Sequence record: PQ295796
Strand: one strand, 5' to 3'
Source of the DNA: Escherichia phage vB_Eco_Lzu_P3
Length of the DNA: 44,829 nt
The stretch's first letter is position 1; the number at the start of each line of letters is the position of its first letter. Below, piece after piece: positions 1 to 44,829 of the stretch. The translations under genes were made by a program, and so were the position numbers. The notes below the pieces were generated by a model, which did no database searches, had not been told where the DNA came from, and saw nothing but the letters and a program-made list of their open reading frames with translations.

Positions 1-127
1 CCCGCTTCGTTATGCGGGGTTCTGTCGCGCCATTTCGTCCAGCGCAACGCGTTCCATTAGCTTGATATCTTTAAACGCACGTTGCGCGTTTTCGATTCCG
101 TGCATCTTAAATAACCATTCCAGTACG
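1..127. repeat. Terminal duplication: 1..127 is identical to 44703..44829 (probable circular-assembly overlap)
   Basis: Compared directly: the window begins cccgcttcgttatgcgg… and ends …ccattccagtacg, both present at each end. 127 bp is a common maximum assembler k-mer size. Confidence 0.8.
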
Positions 128-15871: not shown

Positions 15872-16137
15872 CTGCTCAGTCTCCAGTGTTTGCCTACCCG
15901 CTCGACTGCGGGCTTTCGGCGTAATGTAATACGTATGCCAATTGGTTGCAAGGACGTTTTTATGGCAAGTCCATGCTCCCTGGCGAACTGGCGCAAGTAG
16001 CGGGTCTGCGTTAATGGCTTCACATCGTAGCGATAGCTCCAGAACACAGAATCGCCCTCAACCGCATTCTGCGCCCATATTCGTATGCAATGCAGTGGAA
16101 TATGCCACGAAAGCTGTTTAGCTCGTCTGCGGTCCAT
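15868..16137 (-). CDS. Hypothetical basic protein (89 aa)
   Basis: AAGGGG RBS 5 nt upstream of ATG 16137. Arg/Lys-rich. Contains a TTGGTTGCA element internally. Confidence 0.4.
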   Translation of the reverse strand: MDRRRAKQLSWHIPLHCIRIWAQNAVEGDSVFWSYRYDVKPLTQTRYLRQFAREHGLAIKTSLQPIGIRITLRRKPAVERVGKHWRLSR

Positions 16138-16146
16138 TTTGGCCCC

Positions 16147-16452
16147 TTATTTCGCAAGCTGGGCGAATAGTTCACGTTGTGCTGCAATCCGGGCGACGTT
16201 TGTCGCTGCCGTCTCACCGATCCCGAAGCGATACGCCAGGCGCTCGCGGGCAAATGCCCTCGCATATTCGCAGATTGCCACGCGCAGCGGTTCCAGTTCG
16301 TCCAGGCTGGCAAACATATCGTCGAACGCGTTTATGATTCCCTGCTGGGCCAGGATAACAGCCTGGCGCGCGTCATCTGCGTTGCCGTCTGTGTGCTTCG
16401 CTTCGTACATCTTCGCCACCGCCATTGCGTAATTCCAGATTAATTTTTTCAT
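16147..16452 (-). CDS. Hypothetical protein (101 aa), first gene after the 16.5-kb promoter
   Basis: GAGGA RBS 7 nt upstream of ATG 16452. Preceded by a predicted promoter with operator-like elements. Confidence 0.5.
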   Translation of the reverse strand: MKKLIWNYAMAVAKMYEAKHTDGNADDARQAVILAQQGIINAFDDMFASLDELEPLRVAICEYARAFARERLAYRFGIGETAATNVARIAAQRELFAQLAK

Positions 16453-16465
16453 TGTTCAGTCCTCA

Positions 16466-16513
16466 TGTTGGTGTGCAACCAATCTAGCAGGGTGCCAGGC
16501 GGAATGCAACCAA
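16466..16513 (-). promoter_or_regulatory. Promoter TTGCAT-N17-TAGATT (minus strand) with an ATTGGTTGCAcACCAACA operator-like element overlapping -10 and +1
   Basis: Minus-strand read: attaatATTGGTTGCATtccgcctggcaccctgcTAGATTGGTTGCACACCAACAtgaggactgaacaATG. Confidence 0.5.
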
Positions 16514-16668
16514 TATTAATCATGCGCATGAAAAAGTCGATCGCTATCTGCTGTGACTGCAAACTGCATTTTCCGCCCACCATTCAGCAACTCGCATTGG
16601 TTGCCTAGTTCAGTGACGACCGCAATCCGCAACATGCTGCCGTGTATTTTGCAATCCCGGATTTTATG

Positions 16669-16838
16669 CAGTCTCAGACGAGGGGGGCCATCGACCCCCG
16701 TCTAGTCTGAAAGACTGGGGGTTGTCCCGCCTGTCCCGCTCCCCTCCAGGCCGCGTCATCCGGGGGTGGGACGGGGTGCTGTCCCGCTTTGTCCCGCCCC
16801 TGGTCTGTCCCGCTTTTTGTCCCGCTTACTTTATGCAG
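16669..16838. repeat. Iteron element A: 70-bp GC-rich hairpin block plus six direct TGTCCCGC iterons, then an A+T-rich segment with TTATGCAG boxes
   Basis: Read directly. 16669..16738 matches 44397..44466 with one mismatch. TGTCCCGC starts at 16723, 16732, 16780, 16790, 16806 and 16818. Confidence 0.85.
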
Positions 16839-16931
16839 TTTTATTGCATAACTATGCACTATATTCACACTACACGGCAACCAATGCGACCAGCTAAAAA
16901 CACTCAAAATGGCAACCAATGCGCGCAAAAA

Positions 16932-19196
16932 TTAATCTTTCAGGTCATCATCGGTCGCCGAAAGCGTGATGGGGATATCCGATTTGATGACTAAATTCGA
17001 CGACCCATATATGGCCCCGGTGTGCGGATCTGTATAGAAACCAATCACGCCGCGCTCGACCATATCGTCGATTGCCTTCGTCGAAGTGCCACCCTTAGCG
17101 AGTCCCGCCTGGCGGACGATTGCCGATTTACTGAAACCAGTATGGTCCGGGTTATCTTCCATCAGTTTTTCCAGGGCCGCATAAAGCACTTTCTCTTTTT
17201 CGGTGCGCGGACCGGCGGCGTTTTCTTCCTTAACTGCGGCTTTTCCTGCGGCCTTCGCTTGTTCTATAGCGAACGGAGCCAGGGCGACCGGTACGAGGTA
17301 GAGAGTCTCGTCGCGTGGCGTGGATGCAATTGGCTTGACGTCCCAACCGGCAACCACATCCCCGAAGTCTGGCCCGGTGCTGGTGGACTGGTGCGACGCG
17401 AATGCCTCAGACTTGCGTAGATCAACCTTAACTTTGCACTTGAGCAGGACGAAGCCACGCGGCGCTTGCTTGATGCCGTTACGTGATTTTTCGTGGTACA
17501 GGTTCAATTGTCCGGGCTGGTTGTCGTCCGGCTGTTCCAGGAAGAAAGCAGAATCGACAGCACCATGCAGCGCGCCGGACCCGCGTGGCGTTCTGCTGCC
17601 GTTTGCCCCTTTCGCCGGGTGGTGGATGACGCCCGCACTGCCGCCTGTATTTTCCGCGATGGCTTTCAGCGCTTTGACAACTTCACCCATATCGCTGGCG
17701 TTGTTCTCGTCGAACGGTTTAGCATCGGCGGACCGCAACGCAACAGTCTGGTTGAGTGAGTCGAACGCCACCAGGCCGACCGGCTCGCCGTTAGCAGTGC
17801 GGTTGATATAGCTGATAACTTCGCGCAAACCGGACTTGCTGGTGATATCCCATCCGCGTGACTGCAGATCGATAATGTGCAGCTTGTCGAGGTCGTGCTC
17901 GTATTTAATCTGCAATGCTTCTTTGCGCTGGTTAGAGGCTTCACCACCTTCCGCGTCGAAATAGAAGCAATGAGACTGGACGACCTTCGCACCACCAAAC
18001 GGAATACCGGCGGCAACCGCACCCATCTGCCCAAGCACATAGAAAGACTTACCGATATTCGACTCACCCGCCATATACCAGGTCGATTTAAAGTTAATCA
18101 GACCTTCGATGATCGGGTCGTGCTTACTGAACAGCGCAACCGGCTCGTTATCCAGATCCGCATCGGTGCACACGCCATATTCTTCGCCGTCGCCCACCGC
18201 ATCAACAATGTGATCATATAAGGATTCGACTTCCTCGTCGTCCAGACCTGGCAGGATGGCGGCGATTTGCTTACGCGACATGTTGTGCGGCTCGACGTTC
18301 AGGTGGTCCGGTATCCCGATAAGACGTAGCGCCAGGTGCTGGTGTCTATTTAGCTCCGAGCAACACTCGTTGCCGGTGTGCATACACTTGAAACGGATCT
18401 CGCCATCCTTGACCATGATAGCCGTCGACCCTTCTCCGCTGTGCAGATGTTCGTTCGGGCACGGCACTTCATAACCGCGACCGGAAGATAACTCCTCGAA
18501 TCCTGCCTGGAAGCACCAGTCCAGAATCCCGTCCGCCACTGCGTCGTCGCCCTGGGTAAGCTCGCGGCGTACTTCCTCCTTCTCCACCCCCAGCTTATCC
18601 GCCAGGCGAAGCAGACGACGCACATTAGCGCGCTTGCCGTAGTGGCACTTAATGACAGACTGCTGGTGTGGCAGGTACATAAGACGGTTTGTGTCTTTCG
18701 TGCAATCGTCGAAGTCAACATCCGACAGACCAAGTTGGTCTAACAGCGCGTACTGCACGCGGCCCAGGTCTTCCGCCGGGACAGGCTTGTCAGTGAGTAC
18801 CAGGAAGCGAGCGCAACGCGTGCCGCCTTTCAGTGGGTGACGGTCGCCGGTTGTGGTGTGGAATACGTGCTCCAGCCCCGCGTCTATAAAAGCCTTACGG
18901 CAGCGGCGTAGGGTGCGGGTGTCGGTACGGTCGATATCGAAGAACAGGATCGAGCGGTCCACCGCACTGGTCTTACGACGTAAGCCGTCACTGGTATATG
19001 CCACGATGCCATCGGCCTTACGCTTGCGGCGTGCATACTCGGCTTTATCTTCCGTCTTGTTGATATGCACCGAGGAGATTTCTTTCGCGTCATTGATAAA
19101 TTCGAAAAATTCATCGGTGGTCATCTGGAAGTTTTCCGCCCTGGCTTTTTCGCCTTTTTTAGCGGGTTTTGTTACAGCGAATTTAATTAAGCTCAT
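16932..19196 (-). CDS. DNA primase-helicase with C-terminal putative DNA-binding domain
   Basis: 754 aa. N-terminal primase-like region, a Cys/His cluster (CPNEHLH…CMHTGNECC) and a P-loop (GESNIGKS) in a RecA-like ATPase region. C-terminal segment is winged-helix-like. Confidence 0.7.
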   Translation of the reverse strand: MSLIKFAVTKPAKKGEKARAENFQMTTDEFFEFINDAKEISSVHINKTEDKAEYARRKRKADGIVAYTSDGLRRKTSAVDRSILFFDIDRTDTRTLRRCRKAFIDAGLEHVFHTTTGDRHPLKGGTRCARFLVLTDKPVPAEDLGRVQYALLDQLGLSDVDFDDCTKDTNRLMYLPHQQSVIKCHYGKRANVRRLLRLADKLGVEKEEVRRELTQGDDAVADGILDWCFQAGFEELSSGRGYEVPCPNEHLHSGEGSTAIMVKDGEIRFKCMHTGNECCSELNRHQHLALRLIGIPDHLNVEPHNMSRKQIAAILPGLDDEEVESLYDHIVDAVGDGEEYGVCTDADLDNEPVALFSKHDPIIEGLINFKSTWYMAGESNIGKSFYVLGQMGAVAAGIPFGGAKVVQSHCFYFDAEGGEASNQRKEALQIKYEHDLDKLHIIDLQSRGWDITSKSGLREVISYINRTANGEPVGLVAFDSLNQTVALRSADAKPFDENNASDMGEVVKALKAIAENTGGSAGVIHHPAKGANGSRTPRGSGALHGAVDSAFFLEQPDDNQPGQLNLYHEKSRNGIKQAPRGFVLLKCKVKVDLRKSEAFASHQSTSTGPDFGDVVAGWDVKPIASTPRDETLYLVPVALAPFAIEQAKAAGKAAVKEENAAGPRTEKEKVLYAALEKLMEDNPDHTGFSKSAIVRQAGLAKGGTSTKAIDDMVERGVIGFYTDPHTGAIYGSSNLVIKSDIPITLSATDDDLKD

Positions 19197-19206
19197 TGCC
19201 GTTGCC

Positions 19207-19536
19207 TTATTTGGAAGTTTTATTATTGCGTACCCAGGATCGCACGGTGCTCTGATTAATTCCTGTCAACTCCGCGATCATTGCCCATGACTTCCCCTCA
19301 TCACGTAAACGGATAACCTGTTTTTTGTATTCTTCCATTTCCTCATTGTGCTTTTGCAGCTTGCTTGCTGCCGTACCGTTGAGTAATTCCAGCTTCGCGC
19401 GCAATTCTTTCTCGGTAAGTCGCAGACGTTCGATTTCAAATAGCACCGCACCCACGGCATCGGTATATGCCCAGGACCGGCTTGTCTCACTGCAAACAGT
19501 CTTAGTTAACATTTCGATTGCGTCGTCGATATTCAT
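19207..19536 (-). CDS. Putative HTH transcriptional regulator (first gene of leftward early operon)
   Basis: 109 aa. C-terminal segment GKSWAMIAELTGINQSTVRSWV resembles an HTH. GGAGA RBS. A palindromic operator-like site lies in its own leader. Confidence 0.5.
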   Translation of the reverse strand: MNIDDAIEMLTKTVCSETSRSWAYTDAVGAVLFEIERLRLTEKELRAKLELLNGTAASKLQKHNEEMEEYKKQVIRLRDEGKSWAMIAELTGINQSTVRSWVRNNKTSK

Positions 19537-19701: not shown

Positions 19702-19711
19702 AAATTAGTTG

Positions 19712-19740
19712 TTGACTCCCTTCTGCAACCAATCTAATAT
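19712..19740 (+). promoter_or_regulatory. Rightward early promoter: TTGACT-N17-TAATAT, with TGCAACCAA in the spacer
   Basis: Near-consensus sigma70 hexamers with 17-bp spacing at the head of the plus-strand early block. Confidence 0.55.
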
Positions 19741-19936
19741 TCACCTCGTCGACAGGATGCAGGACGCAAACTGGAGAGGGGCAACGCAGGGGCCGGATCG
19801 AAGTGTCAGGATTCCCAACCGTGATTATATAACCAGGTCCACTACCCGAAAGGGAGAACGCGTAACCTGGCAATATGTTAAGGCCACCGACGAAGTTAAC
19901 TGCCGACACCTAAACTTAACCAATTGGAGATACACC

Positions 19937-20446
19937 ATGTTTGAACAAATCGTAAACCTGATTACTCGCGGCGTAGTAGCACTGGAAACAATCGCTAAAC
20001 ATTATGAAACCGTTGGCGCTGCCGTTGGTAAGCAGGAAGATAAAAAGCCATCTAAGGCGAAAAAAGAAGTCGTAGAAGATGACGACGCTGAAGACGAAGC
20101 ACCGGCGAAAACCAAAAAAGCACCGGCGAAAGGTAAGGCCAAAAAAGAAGTCGTAGAAGATGACGACGATGAAGCCGAAGACGAAAAACCGGCGAAAGGT
20201 AAAAAAGCCACGGCGAAAGGCAAAGGTAAGAAAGATGCCGATCCGCTGGCAGAGATGCGCGACGAAATCAAACAGTATGCCGCGATTATCGCCGGTGGTG
20301 ATGACGACGACGCCAACGACGAATTTGACGACCTGCTGGAATCGTTCGAGATCAAATCAATCGCTAAACTGGAAGATGACGACGTCGAAGACTTCCACAA
20401 AGATCTGAAAGAAATCGTCGAAACCTATTTCGAACTGGAAGACTAA
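19937..20446 (+). CDS. Highly acidic early protein with internal charged repeats
   Basis: Start chosen at ATG 19937 with GGAGA RBS; the ORF track extends it to 19709. Contains tandem KKEVVEDDD(A/D)E…PAKGK repeats. It is the first gene downstream of the strongest predicted early promoter. Confidence 0.5.
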   Translation: MFEQIVNLITRGVVALETIAKHYETVGAAVGKQEDKKPSKAKKEVVEDDDAEDEAPAKTKKAPAKGKAKKEVVEDDDDEAEDEKPAKGKKATAKGKGKKDADPLAEMRDEIKQYAAIIAGGDDDDANDEFDDLLESFEIKSIAKLEDDDVEDFHKDLKEIVETYFELED

Positions 20447-22635: not shown

Positions 22636-22690
22636 CCGAACGGGGTGGCTCATAATAACCCCGATACATGTGAGAATGAGGAATTGGAAA

Positions 22691-23473
22691 ATGGCTAAAG
22701 TCAACCTGAAAAATGTGCGCGTATGTTTCCTTAAAATTTGGGAGCGCGATACCCCTAAACAGGATGGTCAGAAACCGGCATACCGTGCAGTGATTCTTCT
22801 TGATAAAGAAGATCCGCAGGTGGACAAAGTGGAAGCGGCAGCGCGCGCAGTGCTCACCGACAAGCTGAAATCCGAGAAGAATGCTGATAAGTGGATGGAC
22901 CGCCACTACGCCCAGGATTCTAAGGAATGCGCAGTTCGCGACGGTGACGAGCGCGATGAAGTGACCGAAGAATTCGAAGGCATGTTGTACATCAACGCCA
23001 AATCGTTCAAACAGCCGATCATTCAAACGTCACTCGGCGAGAAGCAGACGGAACAAGGTCTGACCGTAGAAGGCGACGAGATCGAAGGCCAGGAGATCTA
23101 CTCCGGTTGTTATTGCAATGTGTCCCTGGATATTTGGGCGTGGAACAATACCAACGGCAAGGGACTCGGTGCTGGTCTTTTGGGTCTGCGCTTCCGCGAT
23201 GACGGCGAAGCCTTCGGCGGTGGCGGGTCTTCTTGCTCAGACGAAGACCTGGGCGACGATGACGAAGATGAAAGCCCGCGCAAGTCCAAAAAATCAAAAC
23301 GTCGTGATGACGATGACGAAGACGACAAGCCGCGCAAGTCCAAAAAATCCAAGCGCCGCGATGACGACGACGAAGATGAAGATGAGAAACCTCGTAAACG
23401 TCGTAAGCCACGCGATGACGAAGATGAGGACGACGACGAAGACGAAGCACCACGTAAACGTCGCCGCCGTTAA
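22691..23473 (+). CDS. Putative ssDNA-binding protein (T7 gp2.5-like / DUF2815-like) with charged repeat C-terminus
   Basis: N-terminus MAKVNLKNVRVCFLKIWE… resembles phage SSB-like proteins. C-terminal third is made of PRKSKKSKRRDDDDEDD-type repeats. Start at ATG 22691 with GAGGAA RBS. Confidence 0.45.
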   Translation: MAKVNLKNVRVCFLKIWERDTPKQDGQKPAYRAVILLDKEDPQVDKVEAAARAVLTDKLKSEKNADKWMDRHYAQDSKECAVRDGDERDEVTEEFEGMLYINAKSFKQPIIQTSLGEKQTEQGLTVEGDEIEGQEIYSGCYCNVSLDIWAWNNTNGKGLGAGLLGLRFRDDGEAFGGGGSSCSDEDLGDDDEDESPRKSKKSKRRDDDDEDDKPRKSKKSKRRDDDDEDEDEKPRKRRKPRDDEDEDDDEDEAPRKRRRR

Positions 23474-41685: not shown

Positions 41686-44328
41686 TCATCGTTTGTAAAG
41701 TACACCACCCGGTTTCGTCGCTTTCACGATCTCGGCCTTCACCGCCTCGGTGATTTGCTTGCCGAACGCCTGCGCTGTACGGGGGTCTGGGCCGCTCACA
41801 CTGGTGTCTGTTTTACCGGACCCAGTGTAAACGTTAGTCGTCACGACCATACCACCGCCTGCACCCGACGCGGCAACGCCAAGTTTCCCGTCCGGCCCGC
41901 GCTTCAGTGGCATGATGGCCTCGGGTCCAGCCTCACCCATCAATCCTGCGCCCTTAGCGAACGCCTGAACGCCATAACTGAAAAAGGTAGGCTGGCTTAC
42001 CACTTTCCCCGAATAGGCCGCCAGATTGCCTCCTGCGTACGCTCCGCCGTCCGCATTCTTAGTCAGGCCAGAGAAGATAGCGCCGAACAATCCGTTTTTG
42101 CCGCCGTCGCCACCGAAAGCGCTAACGATGGACTTGAATGCCTGCGAGGTGGCCAGCTTGATTAGTTCGCTCAGGATGGATTTAACCATATCCTTTGCGT
42201 TCAGCTTGCCAGTCTCGAAAAACTCGTTCATCGTGTCCTGCATAGCGCTGAACGTGAATTTTGTGAGAGACGTCATCTGCGTATAGCCGTTACCCATTTC
42301 ATCCACGCTATCCTTAAGCCCGCGACTGAAGCCATCCCATAGCGAGGCGTTAGCACCGGTCTGTGCTTCCTGCACTTCGCGCAGCTTAGACACCGCCTTG
42401 TCGATATCCGTATCGTTAGCGCCAACCCGCTTCAGGCGGTCAATTAGCTGCAATTCTTCCCGTAGGTTTGCCGCTTCGCGAGTGGAAAGCGCATAGCCCG
42501 CGGCGGTGGCTTTTAGTTCGGCGTTCTGATTCTTAACGAAGGCATCGATCTGCGCGTGCGCCTTAACCTGCTTCTCTTTCGCGTCCAGCAATTTGGCTTC
42601 TTCGACGATCTGCTCGCGCACTTCCTTCACGCGTCCGAATTCGGCCATCTGCTGCTTTTCGGCTGCCGTTAGTGCTCTTTCTTTGCTCGCAGCGATTAAC
42701 TGCTCATTGTCGGCGATCAGCTTGTTTAGGGCCGCTTGCGCGCGTTGCGTGCGGGTCTGCATAGACGCGTTGGCTTCGATCTGCTTGCCGGATTCTCGAA
42801 GCTGGGCCAGTTCGCTCCGTGCGACTTCCAGCATTTTCATACCGGCATCCACGCGAACAGCCGCGGCCTTCTTCGGGGCCGGGTCTTTGTAACGCTCGTT
42901 TACCTGCTTAACCGCCTCAGCAAGCTCTTTCTCGTCAATAACGCCGCGCTTATTCAGCAAATTGAGGCGGGCGATCTCGTCTGCGCGCTTCTTCGCGTTG
43001 GTTGCGTACTCCTTCTCGAACGCAGCGCGGTCGCGGGCGGTGCGGTTAGCCTCCTCGTTCGCCTTTGCGGATTCGTCTGCGGATCGGGCGTTGTCTCGCT
43101 CCGCACGGTTACGCAAGGTGAGCGACGCCACTACCTTTTCCTGGGCGACCAGTTCGCTATAAAGCATGTTAATACGTGCTTTCTGCGCTTCGGTCATCAC
43201 TCCACCGGCAGCGTTTACCGCTTTCATCTCGGCATAGTAAGCCGTTGTCATGCGCTGGAGTGATTCGCGCGCTTTCATCTCCGACTCATTGGAGGACTGC
43301 GCGCGGCCCACATCCAGGATAGCGTCCCACATAGATTTAGCCGCCGATGTGACGACGTTCATCGACCGCTCAAGCGTGCCCATGTTCGCCTTGATATCGT
43401 TGGTCATAGTGGTGAACGATGCCGCGGCGGTTTTGTTCGCCAGCGCAACTGCGTCTGTCTCACGACCCATATCCACAAGCGACTGCACCTGCTGGATCTG
43501 CGCTTCGTTTACGACGTGATACTTATCTGCCAGTGCGCGCAAACCGCCTACGGGGTCAGTTGACAGCTTCGCCACCGCCGCGACCACATCTTCGACCGGC
43601 TGGCTGGACACCTTAGAGAAGTCATTAACCACCTTCGCCAGTGCACCGAAGTCAGCACCCGCCTTCACACCCGCCGCCGCCAGTGCCTGAATTGTGTCAC
43701 GCGTCTTGCGGAATGATCCGCCCATCCGCTCGGCGTTCTCGGATAGCACCAGGATCTGGTTAGCGGTGAGGCCAGAAATATTACCGGACAGCGCCAGCGT
43801 CTTGTTAAGCGCCGCCACTTGGTTTTCCGCGCGGGACATAATAGACACGCCAACGCCCATCGTTGCCGTTAATGCCGCGATGCCGATCCCTAACGGGCCG
43901 AGTGTGCCGACGACATAACGCAGCGTATTCCCCAACCCGCCAAACGCCCCCGTAAGCTGTGGTAACTGCTGAAGCATGACTCGATGCACCGGCATACCCA
44001 TTTCAAGCGTCACCGCGATATCCTGTAACTGGAATGCGGCGTTCCGCGATGCGAATCCCAGGTTTTTGGTCGACATGCCTAATCGGCTGGCGAGTCGCTC
44101 CTGTTTCGTCATGCCGTCGGCGGCCCGATGCGATTCAGTCGCTAACTTTTCCATCCCGCCAGCGGCGTCACCCGTGACCTTTTTCGTGTTGCCGAGGGTG
44201 TCGTTTAATTTTTTAGCTTTCCATTCCGCAGTCTCGGACTTCTGGGAAAATGAGTCCAGCGCGGTATTTGCCGTTTTGACTTGCGTGGCATCGACCTTTA
44301 GTGTGATGCCTGCTGCTTGATCTGCCAT
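41686..44328 (-). CDS. Tail tape measure protein
   Basis: 880 aa, largely alpha-helical/coiled-coil composition with Gly-rich segments, in the position upstream of M-L-K-I-J. Confidence 0.8.
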   Translation of the reverse strand: MADQAAGITLKVDATQVKTANTALDSFSQKSETAEWKAKKLNDTLGNTKKVTGDAAGGMEKLATESHRAADGMTKQERLASRLGMSTKNLGFASRNAAFQLQDIAVTLEMGMPVHRVMLQQLPQLTGAFGGLGNTLRYVVGTLGPLGIGIAALTATMGVGVSIMSRAENQVAALNKTLALSGNISGLTANQILVLSENAERMGGSFRKTRDTIQALAAAGVKAGADFGALAKVVNDFSKVSSQPVEDVVAAVAKLSTDPVGGLRALADKYHVVNEAQIQQVQSLVDMGRETDAVALANKTAAASFTTMTNDIKANMGTLERSMNVVTSAAKSMWDAILDVGRAQSSNESEMKARESLQRMTTAYYAEMKAVNAAGGVMTEAQKARINMLYSELVAQEKVVASLTLRNRAERDNARSADESAKANEEANRTARDRAAFEKEYATNAKKRADEIARLNLLNKRGVIDEKELAEAVKQVNERYKDPAPKKAAAVRVDAGMKMLEVARSELAQLRESGKQIEANASMQTRTQRAQAALNKLIADNEQLIAASKERALTAAEKQQMAEFGRVKEVREQIVEEAKLLDAKEKQVKAHAQIDAFVKNQNAELKATAAGYALSTREAANLREELQLIDRLKRVGANDTDIDKAVSKLREVQEAQTGANASLWDGFSRGLKDSVDEMGNGYTQMTSLTKFTFSAMQDTMNEFFETGKLNAKDMVKSILSELIKLATSQAFKSIVSAFGGDGGKNGLFGAIFSGLTKNADGGAYAGGNLAAYSGKVVSQPTFFSYGVQAFAKGAGLMGEAGPEAIMPLKRGPDGKLGVAASGAGGGMVVTTNVYTGSGKTDTSVSGPDPRTAQAFGKQITEAVKAEIVKATKPGGVLYKR

Positions 44329-44396
44329 TATGCAGTCCCCTTTTCTATGCAGTTGCCGTCGTTCATTGTATCAGCGAATTTACAACAAACCTTATT

Positions 44397-44711
44397 CAGT
44401 CTCAGACGAGGGGGGCCATTGACCCCCGTCTAGTCTGAAAGACTGGGGGTTGTCCCGCCTGTCCCGATCGGCTAAAACCCGCGGCAGCACTGACGGGGAC
44501 GGGGTGCTGTCCCGCTTTGTCCCGCCTCATTCTGTCCCGCTTTCTGTCCCGTTTGTATTATGCAGAAAAACCGCATAGCTATTCACTTTTAAGGGGCGGG
44601 GCAGATCGGGACAGCACCCCGTCCCGCTTTTAGTTTATGCAATGAAAGTGAGTATATATGCGGTTTAATGGTGGCGGGACAAAACGGGACGTCACGTTTT
44701 GTCCCGCTTCG
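44397..44711. repeat. Iteron element B: paralog of element A with at least eight direct and three inverted TGTCCCGC-type iterons and A+T-rich TTATGCAG/TTATGCGG boxes
   Basis: Direct copies start at 44451, 44460 (degenerate), 44508, 44518, 44533, 44545 (degenerate), 44620 (cGTCCCGC) and 44700. Inverted GCGGGACA-type copies are near 44606, 44674 and 44685. Confidence 0.85.
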
Positions 44712-44829
44712 TTATGCGGGGTTCTGTCGCGCCATTTCGTCCAGCGCAACGCGTTCCATTAGCTTGATATCTTTAAACGCACGTTGCGCGTTTTCGATTC
44801 CGTGCATCTTAAATAACCATTCCAGTACG

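What the first reader, a model, noticed from the sequence alone, without database searches (positions are those of the whole stretch)
16669..16838. Iteron element A next to the primase-helicase gene: candidate replication origin / cis-acting control hub
Read directly: a 70-bp block (16669..16738) that can fold into a GC-rich hairpin or cruciform (cagtctcagacgagggggg…cccccgtctagtctgaaagactggggg) is followed by six direct TGTCCCGC iterons at roughly helical-turn spacing, then an A+T-rich stretch with TTATGCAG/CTATGCAC boxes that loosely resemble DnaA boxes (inference). The element lies immediately 3' of the primase-helicase gene, whose C-terminus looks like a DNA-binding domain. From established knowledge of satellite phage P4, the alpha primase-helicase binds iterons in both ori and a second cis replication region (crr) next to the alpha gene. 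By analogy, A and B could be a bipartite origin bound by the primase-helicase. A role as a late-transcription control or termination element is an alternative.
Basis: partly seen in the sequence, partly recalled or inferred. Interest (0 to 1): 0.8.

Follow-up and report, generated by a model that had tools for sequence, protein, structure and literature searches.

The report
Two-copy iteron replication origin, Dhillonvirus
The repeated TGTCCCGC boxes and hairpin beside the phage's primase-helicase gene are most likely its replication origin, an ordinary kind of element, but here it has a co-evolving second copy inside the tail genes.

Summary
The window is a complete Dhillonvirus genome. TGTCCCGC occurs 17 times against 2.3 expected, and 12 copies sit in two intergenic elements: A (3' of the helicase-primase gene) and B (between the tail chaperone and the tape-measure gene). 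Both share a 49-nt imperfect palindrome and the same iteron spacing.

I read A and B as an iteron-type origin or cis-replication region for the phage's own primase / RepA-like helicase / winged-helix protein. Four lines of evidence support this.
- In IMG/VR, TGTCCCGC arrays in 51 of 56 unrelated contigs sit at replication-initiator genes of three classes.
- All 158 Dhillonvirus records keep A, and the listed ones have two copies.
- In sister lineages the iteron switches (GTGTGGCA, GTGTGCCAA, GGTGCCA) while the architecture stays.
- Where both elements could be read, in three further lineages, A and B carry the same iteron family (one weakly).

The predicted C-terminal domain has a winged-helix fold.

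The DnaA-box resemblance is chance level. The protein is not P4 alpha-like. The hairpin shows no covariation.

This is a new member of a known kind, closest to SaPI Rep/ori, with a P4 ori/crr-like second copy. No experiment supports it. Transcription control remains a weaker rival.

The parts
16932..19196 (-). Helicase-primase gene (754 aa). It has an N-terminal primase-like region, an AAA_25 RecA-fold helicase core (residues 357-531), and a C-terminal winged-helix-like domain followed by an acidic tail.
   Evidence: Pfam AAA_25, E 1.3e-19. PHROG 3228 'replicative helicase-primase'. The AF2 model's best helicase match is RSF1010 RepA, 1g8y, TMt 0.63.
16935..17219 (-). Region encoding the C-terminal domain (residues ~660-754), the proposed iteron reader.
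   Evidence: AF2 model with pLDDT 79.6 and H-H-H-beta-beta topology. All top PDB matches are winged-helix domains (MarR/MepR/PcaV, histone H1, ORC2 WHD), but with E-values of only 0.03-0.3. Two of the three protein columns that separate GCGGGACA lineages from the others lie here: T704 and S733.
16877..16924 (+). Two direct GGCAACCAATGCG repeats between the helicase stop codon and the A+T-rich stretch. They belong to a genome-wide GCAACCAA motif, not to the iteron family.
   Evidence: (repeat D9).
16826..16875 (.). A+T-rich stretch of element A with YTATGCA(G/C) boxes. It is the candidate DNA-unwinding region.
   Evidence: AT fraction 0.70, among the most A+T-rich 50-mers of the genome. TATGCA is enriched in A/B, p = 1e-7. 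The TTTATGCAG box is invariant in 16 Dhillonvirus copies.
16723..16825 (+). Iteron array of element A: six TGTCCCGC at spacings 9, 48, 10, 16 and 12 bp, plus an inverted GGGAC half-site at 16764-16768.
   Evidence: The iterons are conserved and the spacers variable across relatives.
16669..16717 (.). Imperfect palindrome (hairpin or cruciform) of element A.
   Evidence: Folds at -27.5 kcal/mol, z about -2.9 to -3.6. The arms are nearly invariant and the 7-nt loop hypervariable in 28 copies. No covariation was found.
16453..16668 (-). Remainder of the intergenic region, with three more GCAACCAA motifs and a weak sigma-70-like TTGCAT-N17-TAGATT upstream of the first late-cluster ORF (16147-16452).
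   Evidence: Read from the sequence and motif positions. The consensus promoter scan found nothing.
44397..44445 (.). Imperfect palindrome of element B. It matches A's palindrome except in the loop.
44451..44552 (+). Iteron array of element B: four exact and two one-mismatch TGTCCCGC at spacings 9, 48, 10, 15 and 12 bp.
44553..44711 (.). B-specific extension: A+T-rich boxes alternating with two inverted iteron pairs (44596-44627 and 44674-44707). It ends at the stop codon of the tail chaperone gene (44712).
44329..44396 (-). Sixty-eight bp between B's palindrome and the tape-measure start codon (44328), carrying two YTATGCAG boxes.

Best explanation
Elements A (16669-16931) and B (44397-44711) are two copies of one cis-acting replication module of a Dhillonvirus.

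Proposed mechanism (all steps inferred):
1. The phage's single-chain primase / RepA-like hexameric helicase binds the TGTCCCGC iterons through its C-terminal winged-helix domain.
2. It oligomerises and opens the adjoining A+T-rich stretch.
3. It loads itself as a helicase and primes with its own primase domain.
4. The phage family-A DNA polymerase then extends the primer.
5. The conserved imperfect palindrome next to the iterons is extruded or bound during opening. It stabilises the open complex or marks the priming or loading site.

B is either a second origin or a P4-crr-like partner that the same protein bridges to A.

Shown here: the sequence anatomy, its conservation, its linkage to initiator genes across phages, the matching iteron family in A and B, and a predicted winged-helix fold.

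Inferred: binding, melting, priming, and any requirement for both copies.
For: 1. The motif is concentrated in A and B: 17 copies against 2.3 expected, with 12 in the two loci.

2. TGTCCCGC arrays mark replication-initiator genes in unrelated viral contigs. Fifty-six IMG/VR loci with no nucleotide similarity to the window carry clusters of at least 4 copies. Fifty-one of the 56 fall into three classes:
- Prim-Pol + AAA_25 helicases. In the 21 loci where an iterative profile confirms the helicase, the array starts within 94 bp of the stop codon or overlaps the gene's 3' end in 20, and lies 584 bp downstream in one.
- DnaD-like initiators, with the array inside the gene in 16 of 16, as in lambda O.
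- Zn-ribbon/Toprim primases, with the array 3-10 bp after the stop in 7 of 11 and overlapping the 3' end in 2.

3. No downstream gene family is shared by these loci; only the initiators are.

4. All 158 Dhillonvirus records with this region keep element A, and the listed records have two or more places.

5. Relatives whose helicase-primase is 67-69% identical keep the architecture: GCAACCAA motifs, A+T box and iterons, followed by the hairpin wherever the contig reaches that far. Their iterons are GCGGGACA, GTGTGGCA, GTGTGCCAA or GGTGCCA. Kagunavirus St162 has GGGGAGA x6 only at this position.

6. A and B carry the same iteron family within a lineage:
- GTGTGGCA lies at both ends of one 27.6-kb contig, 7 of 8 copies in A/B, p = 5e-12.
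- CGGGAC(A) lies in both elements of the L129/L253 lineage, read from two contigs that encode the identical tape-measure protein.
- GGGAT(C/A) lies in both L254 and L255, more weakly.

7. The small HTH protein encoded next to the helicase has an invariant HTH across lineages with different iterons, so it is not the iteron reader.

8. The C-terminal domain is predicted as a winged helix. Two of the only three class-discriminating columns in 754 residues lie in it.

9. Rhizobium phage 16-3 has about 17 GCGTGACA/TGTCACGC copies plus a G/C palindrome right after p101 primase-helicase.

10. Published precedents:
- SaPI Rep and PriRep5 bind iterons immediately downstream of rep through a C-terminal winged-helix domain (PMC9371898).
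- pRN1 needs a stem-loop downstream of its prim-pol/helicase gene (PMC4234260).
Against: - There is no experimental datum of any kind for this phage group. The literature searches found no description of these repeats or of a Dhillonvirus origin.
- GC skew follows gene orientation and gives no origin signal at A or B.
- The link between the C-terminal domain and the iteron type is imperfect. P0013 and P0011 have very similar recognition helices but different iterons.
- hhalign finds no homology between the putative DNA-binding domains of the initiator classes that share TGTCCCGC.
- The winged-helix matches have weak E-values, 0.03-0.3.
- In A all six full iterons point one way, with the A+T-rich stretch on one side only. 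This differs from the symmetric SaPI-type origin.
- Both elements lie just upstream of late gene blocks and in the same orientation, which also fits a transcriptional role.
Confidence: 0.68

Rival explanations
1. A and B are control regions for late transcription. The iterons would be binding sites for a lineage-specific phage regulator that activates, blocks or antiterminates transcription entering the late cluster (A) and the tape-measure and distal tail genes (B). The hairpin would be a terminator, attenuator or RNA-processing site in the late transcript.
For: - A sits at the boundary between the helicase-primase gene and the lysis, packaging and head genes. B sits directly upstream of the tape-measure gene. 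Both have the same orientation relative to transcription.
- Promoter-like GCAACCAA/TTGGTTGCA motifs flank A.
- One GenBank record, LR999870.1, annotates a 'terminator' under the match.
- The hairpin folds equally well as RNA on the transcribed strand: -27.6 kcal/mol, z = -3.55.
Against: - No sigma-70 promoter or intrinsic terminator was found in A. The terminator-like hits in B lie on the non-transcribed strand. No U-tract follows the hairpin.
- There is no Rfam match and no covariation.
- In unrelated phages the same iteron arrays track the initiator gene, at its 3' end or inside it, and not any downstream gene family.
- St162 has iterons only after the helicase gene and no gap before its tape-measure gene.
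Confidence: 0.15
2. Only the iterons are replication sites. The 49-nt palindrome is a separate RNA-level element, such as an RNase III processing site or a stabilising hairpin of the polycistronic late mRNA, that happens to be linked to them.
For: - It is a long imperfect stem with internal loops in an intergenic position on the transcribed strand, at two places.
- The palindrome stays the same in lineages whose iterons have switched, so it is read by something else.
Against: - G/C-rich palindromes flanked by inverted iterons accompany the arrays in many unrelated contigs and in phage 16-3, whatever the surrounding genes.
- The arms are nearly invariant in sequence rather than covarying. That points to sequence-specific DNA recognition more than to RNA shape.
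Confidence: 0.1
3. A/B is a duplicated selfish or neutral repeat, or a packaging or partition site, with no role in replication initiation.
For: - Two copies of about 190 bp at 77-87% identity.
- Metagenome assemblies break at the repeat.
Against: - Position and architecture are conserved in all relatives. Motifs are kept while spacers diverge.
- The iteron family changes together in both copies of a lineage.
- The terminase genes are about 5 kb away from A. No partition genes were seen in the annotation.
Confidence: 0.04

Closest known systems
SaPI Rep / PriRep5 self-loading initiator-helicases and their ori (Staphylococcus aureus pathogenicity islands; PMC9371898)
   Same: - One protein, in SaPI5 fused to a primase, is both initiator and helicase.
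- It has a C-terminal winged-helix domain.
- Six to twelve short iterons lie immediately downstream of its ORF, next to an A+T-rich region.
   Different: - The SaPI Rep helicases are of a different, AAA+ type (the paper places them with the superfamily III and MCM helicases). Here the core is RecA-fold AAA_25, like RSF1010 RepA.
- SaPI origins are symmetric, with iterons in opposite orientation on both sides of the A+T region. Element A is asymmetric, and only B's extension has inverted pairs.
- SaPIs have one origin. This phage has two copies.
Satellite phage P4 alpha protein with ori and crr (established knowledge; Ziegelin & Lanka 1995 and Yeo et al. 2002, as cited in PMC4234260)
   Same: - A three-function primase-helicase-origin-binding protein with a winged-helix C-terminus.
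- The same octamer iteron in two separated loci of one genome, one of them beside the gene.
   Different: - No sequence relation was found: there is no PDB hit, including the P4 origin-binding domain, and the helicase superfamily differs.
- The iteron sequence differs (TGTTCACC in P4, from memory).
- A and B are 17 kb apart the short way round the circular map (27.7 kb the other way), against about 4.5 kb in P4.
- Whether both are required in cis is unknown here.
pRN1 ORF904 (prim-pol / helicase / winged helix) with its stem-loop origin downstream of the gene (PMC4234260)
   Same: - A multifunctional primase-helicase.
- An essential large stem-loop downstream of its gene. The authors note similar repeats plus a stem-loop in Bordetella phages BIP-1/BPP-1.
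   Different: - ORF904 has a superfamily 3 helicase, and no iterons were recognised in pRN1.
- Here the stem-loop is 49 nt and sits beside an iteron array.
IncQ plasmid RSF1010 oriV (iterons, G+C-rich and A+T-rich segments, ssiA/ssiB hairpins; RepA helicase, RepB' primase, RepC initiator; established knowledge)
   Same: - The helicase core is structurally closest to RepA.
- The origin-like layout combines iterons, a G+C-rich spacer, an A+T-rich stretch and a hairpin.
   Different: - In RSF1010 three separate proteins do the work, and two hairpins on opposite strands serve as priming signals.
- Here there is one fused protein and one palindrome per element.
- No RepC homologue was looked for or seen.
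Lambda O protein with ori lambda inside the O gene (established knowledge)
   Same: One class of the TGTCCCGC arrays found in IMG/VR lies inside DnaD-like initiator genes, between the two domains, exactly as in lambda.
   Different: In the window the array is outside the gene, and the initiator is itself the helicase.

Membership tests
Iteron origin of a self-loading initiator-helicase (SaPI Rep/ori type) | An array of short direct repeats immediately downstream of the initiator-helicase ORF. | tested here: met
   Six TGTCCCGC at 16723-16825, with the stop codon at 16932-16934. The same arrangement holds in 20 of 21 unrelated AAA_25 helicase loci.
Iteron origin of a self-loading initiator-helicase (SaPI Rep/ori type) | The initiator carries a C-terminal winged-helix DNA-binding domain. 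| tested here: met
   This rests on a predicted fold only. The AF2 C-terminal model has pLDDT 79.6 and H-H-H-beta-beta topology. All top PDB matches are winged-helix domains, at E 0.03-0.3.
Iteron origin of a self-loading initiator-helicase (SaPI Rep/ori type) | A central A+T-rich region with at least two iterons on each side pointing in opposite directions. | tested here: inconclusive
   A has its A+T stretch on one side only and all six iterons direct. B's extension (44553-44711) has inverted pairs around A+T-rich boxes.
Iteron origin of a self-loading initiator-helicase (SaPI Rep/ori type) | A helicase of the AAA+ type found in SaPI Reps (superfamily III / MCM-like). | tested here: not met
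   Pfam AAA_25. The fold is closest to RecA-family proteins and RSF1010 RepA.
Iteron origin of a self-loading initiator-helicase (SaPI Rep/ori type) | Specific binding of the initiator to the iterons, and origin-dependent replication. | not testable with these tools
   Needs a gel shift and a replication assay.
P4 ori/crr bipartite origin | An alpha-type protein (primase + superfamily 3 helicase + P4-type origin-binding domain). | tested here: not met
   phmmer against PDB sequences gives no hit. The profile search hits only RepA weakly, plus a repeat artefact.
P4 ori/crr bipartite origin | The same iteron in two separated loci of the genome. | tested here: met
   A and B. In three further lineages both elements carry the same iteron family.
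P4 ori/crr bipartite origin | Both loci required in cis for replication. | not testable with these tools
   Needs deletion analysis.
DnaA-dependent origin | DnaA boxes (TTWTNCACA) in or beside the origin. | tested here: not met
   No perfect box anywhere in the genome. Two of 45 one-mismatch sites lie in A/B against 0.9 expected.
IncQ (RSF1010) oriV | A RepA-type hexameric helicase. | tested here: met
   Foldseek TMt 0.61-0.63 to 1g8y, 1nlf and 1olo. Pfam AAA_25.
IncQ (RSF1010) oriV | Two ssi hairpins on opposite strands, with separate RepC initiator and RepB' primase. | tested here: inconclusive
   There is one palindrome per element, able to fold on either strand. The primase is fused to the helicase. 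RepC was not searched for.
pRN1-type stem-loop origin | A large stem-loop downstream of a prim-pol/helicase gene. | tested here: met
   A 49-nt palindrome lies 215 bp from the stop codon. Whether the N-terminal domain is a Prim-Pol is only suggested: weak PHROG primase hits over residues 23-177 and a DxD motif read by eye.
Intrinsic terminator | A G+C-rich hairpin followed by a U-tract on the transcribed strand. | tested here: not met
   No sites in 16100-17100. The sites in B lie on the + strand, which is not transcribed there.
Any Rfam RNA family | A match at the gathering score. | tested here: not met
   No matches in the whole window.

The most novel reading that the evidence does not exclude
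A and B form an obligatory pair, bridged by the helicase-primase like P4 ori/crr. The pair is placed at the entry to the late cluster and inside the tail operon so that origin firing or initiator occupancy gates late-gene transcription. In addition, TGTCCCGC-type arrays would be a portable origin 'word' reused by three initiator classes with no detectable homology. That would imply either an exchangeable recognition module or a shared host factor.
Probability: 0.12. Interest if true: 0.75.

Novelty: new member of a known kind. Interest (0 to 1): 0.5.

Why it matters
Dhillonviruses are common coliphages, present in the BASEL collection and among phage-therapy candidates, and I found no description of an origin for them.

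The result gives precise, testable origin candidates and a candidate reader domain. It also gives a natural series of iteron switches (GCGGGACA, GTGTGGCA, GTGTGCCAA, GGTGCCA, GGGGAGA) paired with initiator variants 45-70% identical. That series could be used to work out how a winged-helix initiator changes specificity. It would also help anyone building phage-derived replicons or engineering these phages.

There is a practical point too. The A/B repeat breaks short-read assemblies, and parts of A are annotated as hypothetical ORFs in some GenBank records.

Tried and rejected
- Rfam gathering scan of the whole window: nothing.
- Consensus promoter and terminator scans: nothing useful.
- GC skew: it tracks gene orientation only, with its minimum at the divergent region near 19.5-20 kb.
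- RNAalifold on 14 hairpin variants: covariation term 0, because the stems are nearly invariant.
- Whether the palindrome is inverted in lineage L131: the two orientations align about equally well (scores 57 and 53), so this is undecidable.
- Protein-database search with the C-terminal fragment alone: no hits.
- phmmer of the Dhillonvirus C-terminal 179 aa against proteins near the IMG/VR arrays: no hits.
- hhalign between the Dhillonvirus C-terminal domain, the C-terminal domains of the other helicase and primase classes, and the DnaD-like initiators: no homology, probability at most 1%.
- The C-terminal profile hits BurrH, a TALE-like protein (4cj9), at E = 1e-35. This is one short motif, GFSxAxIVKIAG..GG, counted across about 20 near-identical repeats. 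The best single repeat has i-Evalue 1.4, so I rejected it as evidence.
- IMG/VR scan for GTGTGCC..GTGTGCCAA, meant to find A/B pairs of the L131 lineage: hits with no close relative of the helicase-primase and none of the tape-measure protein. By my own estimate 16 specified bases give about 100 chance matches at this database size.
- Plasmid search for the helicase-primase, to find it acting as a replicon: only a phage-like 44-kb 'plasmid' record and distant RepA helicases.
- Literature searches for the 8-mer, for Dhillonvirus origins or genome termini, and for a phage 16-3 origin: nothing relevant.

Full report
**What the window is.** Bases 1-127 repeat at 44703-44829, so the window is a 44,702-bp circular assembly plus a 127-bp overlap. 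It is 90-96% identical over the region to Dhillonvirus coliphages such as SSL-2009a and HK578. It lies in reverse-complement orientation relative to SSL-2009a.

On the minus strand the gene order is as follows:
- a small HTH protein (19207-19536);
- the helicase-primase (16932-19196);
- a 479-bp gap, element A (16453-16931);
- small ORFs, then lysis, terminase, head and tail genes, and the tail chaperone;
- a 383-bp gap, element B (44329-44711);
- the tape-measure gene (41686-44328) and the distal tail genes.

The other replication genes lie on the plus strand at 19.7-32.3 kb.

**Check of the observation.**
- TGTCCCGC occurs 17 times against 2.29 expected; no shuffle out of 100 reached that count.
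- Six copies lie at 16723-16825. Six exact copies and five one-mismatch copies lie at 44451-44707. Five are scattered elsewhere.
- The palindrome 16669-16717 folds at -27.5 kcal/mol with z about -3 on either strand.
- A and B share 135 nt at 87% identity and a further 57 nt at 77%.
- Their iteron spacings are nearly identical: 9, 48, 10, 16, 12 in A and 9, 48, 10, 15, 12 in B.
- A 50-bp stretch with AT fraction 0.70 follows the A array.

- Only part of the array is at helical-turn spacing.
- The 'DnaA-like' boxes are a real, enriched YTATGCA(G) motif: 8 of the genome's 32 TATGCA copies lie in A/B, p = 1e-7. As DnaA boxes they are at chance level: 0 perfect sites in the genome, and 2 of 45 one-mismatch sites in A/B against 0.9 expected.

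**The protein next door.**
- The 754-aa helicase-primase has one Pfam hit, AAA_25, over residues 357-531.
- It matches PHROG 3228, 'replicative helicase-primase'.
- It has no sequence hit in the PDB, so it is not a P4 alpha homologue.
- An AlphaFold2 model built from 30 homologues (pLDDT 72) places the core closest to RecA-family ATPases. The highest target coverage is for RSF1010 RepA, TMt 0.61-0.63.
- Modelled alone, the last 95 residues give pLDDT 79.6 and a helix-helix-helix-beta-beta topology. All top PDB matches are winged-helix domains (MarR-family PcaV and MepR, histone H1, the ORC2 winged-helix domain, LexA). E-values are only 0.03-0.3, which is common for so small a domain.

**Decisive comparative evidence 1: the iteron word tracks initiator genes.** A scan of IMG/VR for two adjacent TGTCCCGC returned the Dhillonvirus loci and many loci with no nucleotide similarity to the window. 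Of the latter, 56 carry clusters of 4-10 copies, often in both orientations and next to a G/C-rich palindrome flanked by inverted GGGACA...TGTCCC.

Clustering the neighbouring ORFs showed that the most widely shared families are replication initiators. Three classes cover 51 of the 56 loci.
- Prim-Pol + AAA_25 helicases (24 loci). In the 21 where an iterative profile confirms the helicase, the array always lies on the 3' side. It starts within 94 bp of the stop codon or overlaps the gene's end in 20, and lies 584 bp away in one.
- DnaD-like 'replication initiation proteins' (16 loci). The array lies inside the gene between its two domains in 16 of 16, the lambda O arrangement.
- Zn-ribbon/Toprim primases (11 loci). 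The array lies 3-10 bp after the stop codon in 7 and overlaps the 3' end in 2.

No downstream gene family is shared by these loci.

Rhizobium phage 16-3 adds a named example. Its p101 is 68% identical to one of the AAA_25 helicases above. It is followed by about 17 GCGTGACA/TGTCACGC copies, one base different from the window's iteron, and a G/C palindrome.

**Decisive comparative evidence 2: conservation and switching.**
- All 158 phage records that match the region keep element A, and the listed records have two or more places.
- Within Dhillonvirus the iterons, the palindrome arms and the TTTATGCAG box are invariant or nearly so, while the spacers diverge.
- In 28 palindrome copies the arms are nearly invariant and the 7-nt loop takes about ten forms.

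Metagenomic relatives whose helicase-primase is 67-69% identical keep the layout: GCAACCAA motifs, A+T box and iterons, followed by the palindrome wherever the contig reaches that far. Their iterons differ by lineage:
- L129: GCGGGACA;
- L130 and L257: GTGTGGCA;
- L131: GTGTGCCAA;
- L258 and L259: GGTGCCA.

Kagunavirus St162 (44% identical) has GGGGAGA six times, only in the 160 bp after the stop codon. It has no gap before its tape-measure gene.

**A and B carry the same iteron family in each lineage.**
- One 27,589-nt contig begins in B and ends in A, with the same 27-mer at both ends. It carries GTGTGGCA in both: 7 of its 8 copies lie in 326 bp, p = 5e-12.
- The L129/L253 lineage has CGGGAC(A) in both (p = 1e-17). 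Its A and B were read from two different contigs that encode the identical tape-measure protein.
- A more distant lineage, L254/L255, has GGGAT(C/A) in both, more weakly.

So the two elements are read by one lineage-specific factor.

**Which protein reads the iterons.** The adjacent small HTH protein is not that factor. Its HTH is invariant across lineages with different iterons.

In the helicase-primase, only three of 754 alignment columns are constant in all GCGGGACA lineages and different in all others: G612, T704 and S733. T704 lies at the start of the predicted recognition helix and S733 in the wing. By my estimate, two of three falling in the last 95 residues has a chance probability of about 0.04.

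The correspondence is not perfect. P0013 and P0011 have similar recognition helices but different iterons.

**Most likely mechanism.** A and B are iteron-type origin modules for a self-loading primase-helicase.
1. The winged-helix C-terminus binds the iterons.
2. The adjacent A+T-rich stretch opens.
3. The RepA-like helicase loads and the primase domain primes.
4. The phage Pol A extends the primer.

The palindrome stays constant when the iterons switch. It probably acts as extruded DNA structure, or as a site for a conserved part of the protein, at opening or priming. Precedents are the pRN1 stem-loop origin (PMC4234260) and the RSF1010 ssi hairpins (established knowledge). All of these steps are inferred.

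I cannot tell whether B is a second origin or a crr-like partner. B is the more symmetric of the two, with inverted iteron pairs around A+T boxes at 44553-44711. It fits the SaPI rule of opposed iterons better than A does (PMC9371898).

**Rivals.**
- A late-transcription role fits the positions and the shared orientation. It is weakened by the absence of promoter or terminator signals, by the initiator linkage in unrelated phages, and by St162 lacking B.
- An RNA role for the palindrome alone, such as an RNase III site, is possible. No covariation supports it.
- A neutral repeat, packaging site or partition site is unlikely, given the conservation pattern and the matched iteron switching.

**Comparison with known systems.**
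- It works most like SaPI Rep/PriRep5 with its ori: iterons immediately downstream of the gene and a winged-helix C-terminal domain (PMC9371898).
- In having two loci it resembles P4 ori/crr.
- It is a member of neither family, because the helicase is of a different type and no sequence relation was found.
- I file it as a new member of a known kind: an iteron origin beside a multifunctional initiator-helicase. To my searches it is undescribed for Dhillonvirus.

**Unexplained.** The same 8-mer is used next to three initiator classes whose putative DNA-binding domains show no detectable homology.

Noticed in passing
window 1-127 and 44703-44829: An exact 127-bp terminal overlap shows that the window is a circular assembly of a complete 44,702-bp Dhillonvirus genome. 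The assembly junction falls inside the last iteron of element B.
   Followed up: yes
window 5583, 5597, 13215, 16475, 16506, 16597, 16877, 16912, 22611, 22627, 29396, 29413, 31086 and others: A second motif, GCAACCAA/TTGGTTGC, occurs 20 times, 13 of them intergenic and often as pairs 12-30 bp apart just upstream of genes. It stays the same in lineages whose iterons switch, as does the HTH of the small Sigma70_r4/HTH_23 protein (19207-19536). In the two relatives examined that encode a Cro/CI-type HTH instead (St162, L254), related CAGCCAAC / GCTGCCAAC motifs occur around the corresponding element A region. It may be the operator or promoter motif of that small protein.
   Followed up: partly
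window 16664, 16831, 16853, 44328, 44345, 44558, 44635: YTATGCA(G) boxes are strongly enriched in A and B (8 of 32 TATGCA copies, p = 1e-7) and recur at the same position in relatives (St162, eiAU, L129, L130). They are not DnaA boxes, and their reader is unknown. One overlaps the tape-measure start codon.
   Followed up: partly
L130 end / L252 start; L258 and L259 ends; MZ234029.1 (L127) record ends: Short-read contigs of this phage group repeatedly end inside A or B. One 27.6-kb contig has the same 27-mer at both ends. The GenBank record CHD5UKE2 starts and ends in B with an assembly overlap. The A/B repeat appears to break or seed assemblies.
   Followed up: partly
IMG/VR loci L007-L125; NC_011103.1 56250-56600 (L256 3670-4020): TGTCCCGC/GCGGGACA arrays with a flanking G/C palindrome are widespread next to three different initiator classes in viral contigs of 46-69% G+C. 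Rhizobium phage 16-3 has the one-base variant GCGTGACA about 17 times after gene p101. I found no description of an origin for that phage in the held literature.
   Followed up: partly
window 16935-17100 (helicase-primase residues ~685-705): The helix-loop-helix GFSKSAIVRQAGLAKGG resembles the repeat unit of the TALE-like protein BurrH (GFSQADIVKIAGNIGG). In the Kagunavirus homologues I count 13 of 20 residues identical by eye. The profile E-value of 1e-35 comes from counting 20 repeats; the best single repeat has i-Evalue 1.4, so this is only a curiosity.
   Followed up: partly
window 16935-16952 (protein C-terminus ...TDDDLKD): The acidic C-terminal tail is conserved in all 30 homologues, with D751 and L752 invariant. 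It recalls the acidic tails by which T7 gp4 and gp2.5 contact the polymerase; that comparison is from memory and was not tested.
   Followed up: no
window 16674-16928 (-) and MZ234029.1 CHD5UKE2_037: A mechanical ORF of 84 aa covers the iteron array, and one GenBank record annotates a hypothetical protein there. Gene callers find no gene at this place in the L129, L131 or L257 lineages, and the conservation pattern is that of motifs and spacers. It is probably not a gene.
   Followed up: partly
window 20053-20180 and 23255-23447: Direct repeats of 47-54 nt inside two plus-strand ORFs (19709-20446 and 22670-23473, the latter a Gp2.5-like SSB in SSL-2009a) appear, from the codons, to encode lysine-rich and acidic (D/E) low-complexity tracts.
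   Followed up: no
L253 1853-2601: In the L129-type lineage two small minus-strand genes are inserted between the tail chaperone and element B, so the neighbourhood of B is a site of gene gain.
   Followed up: no
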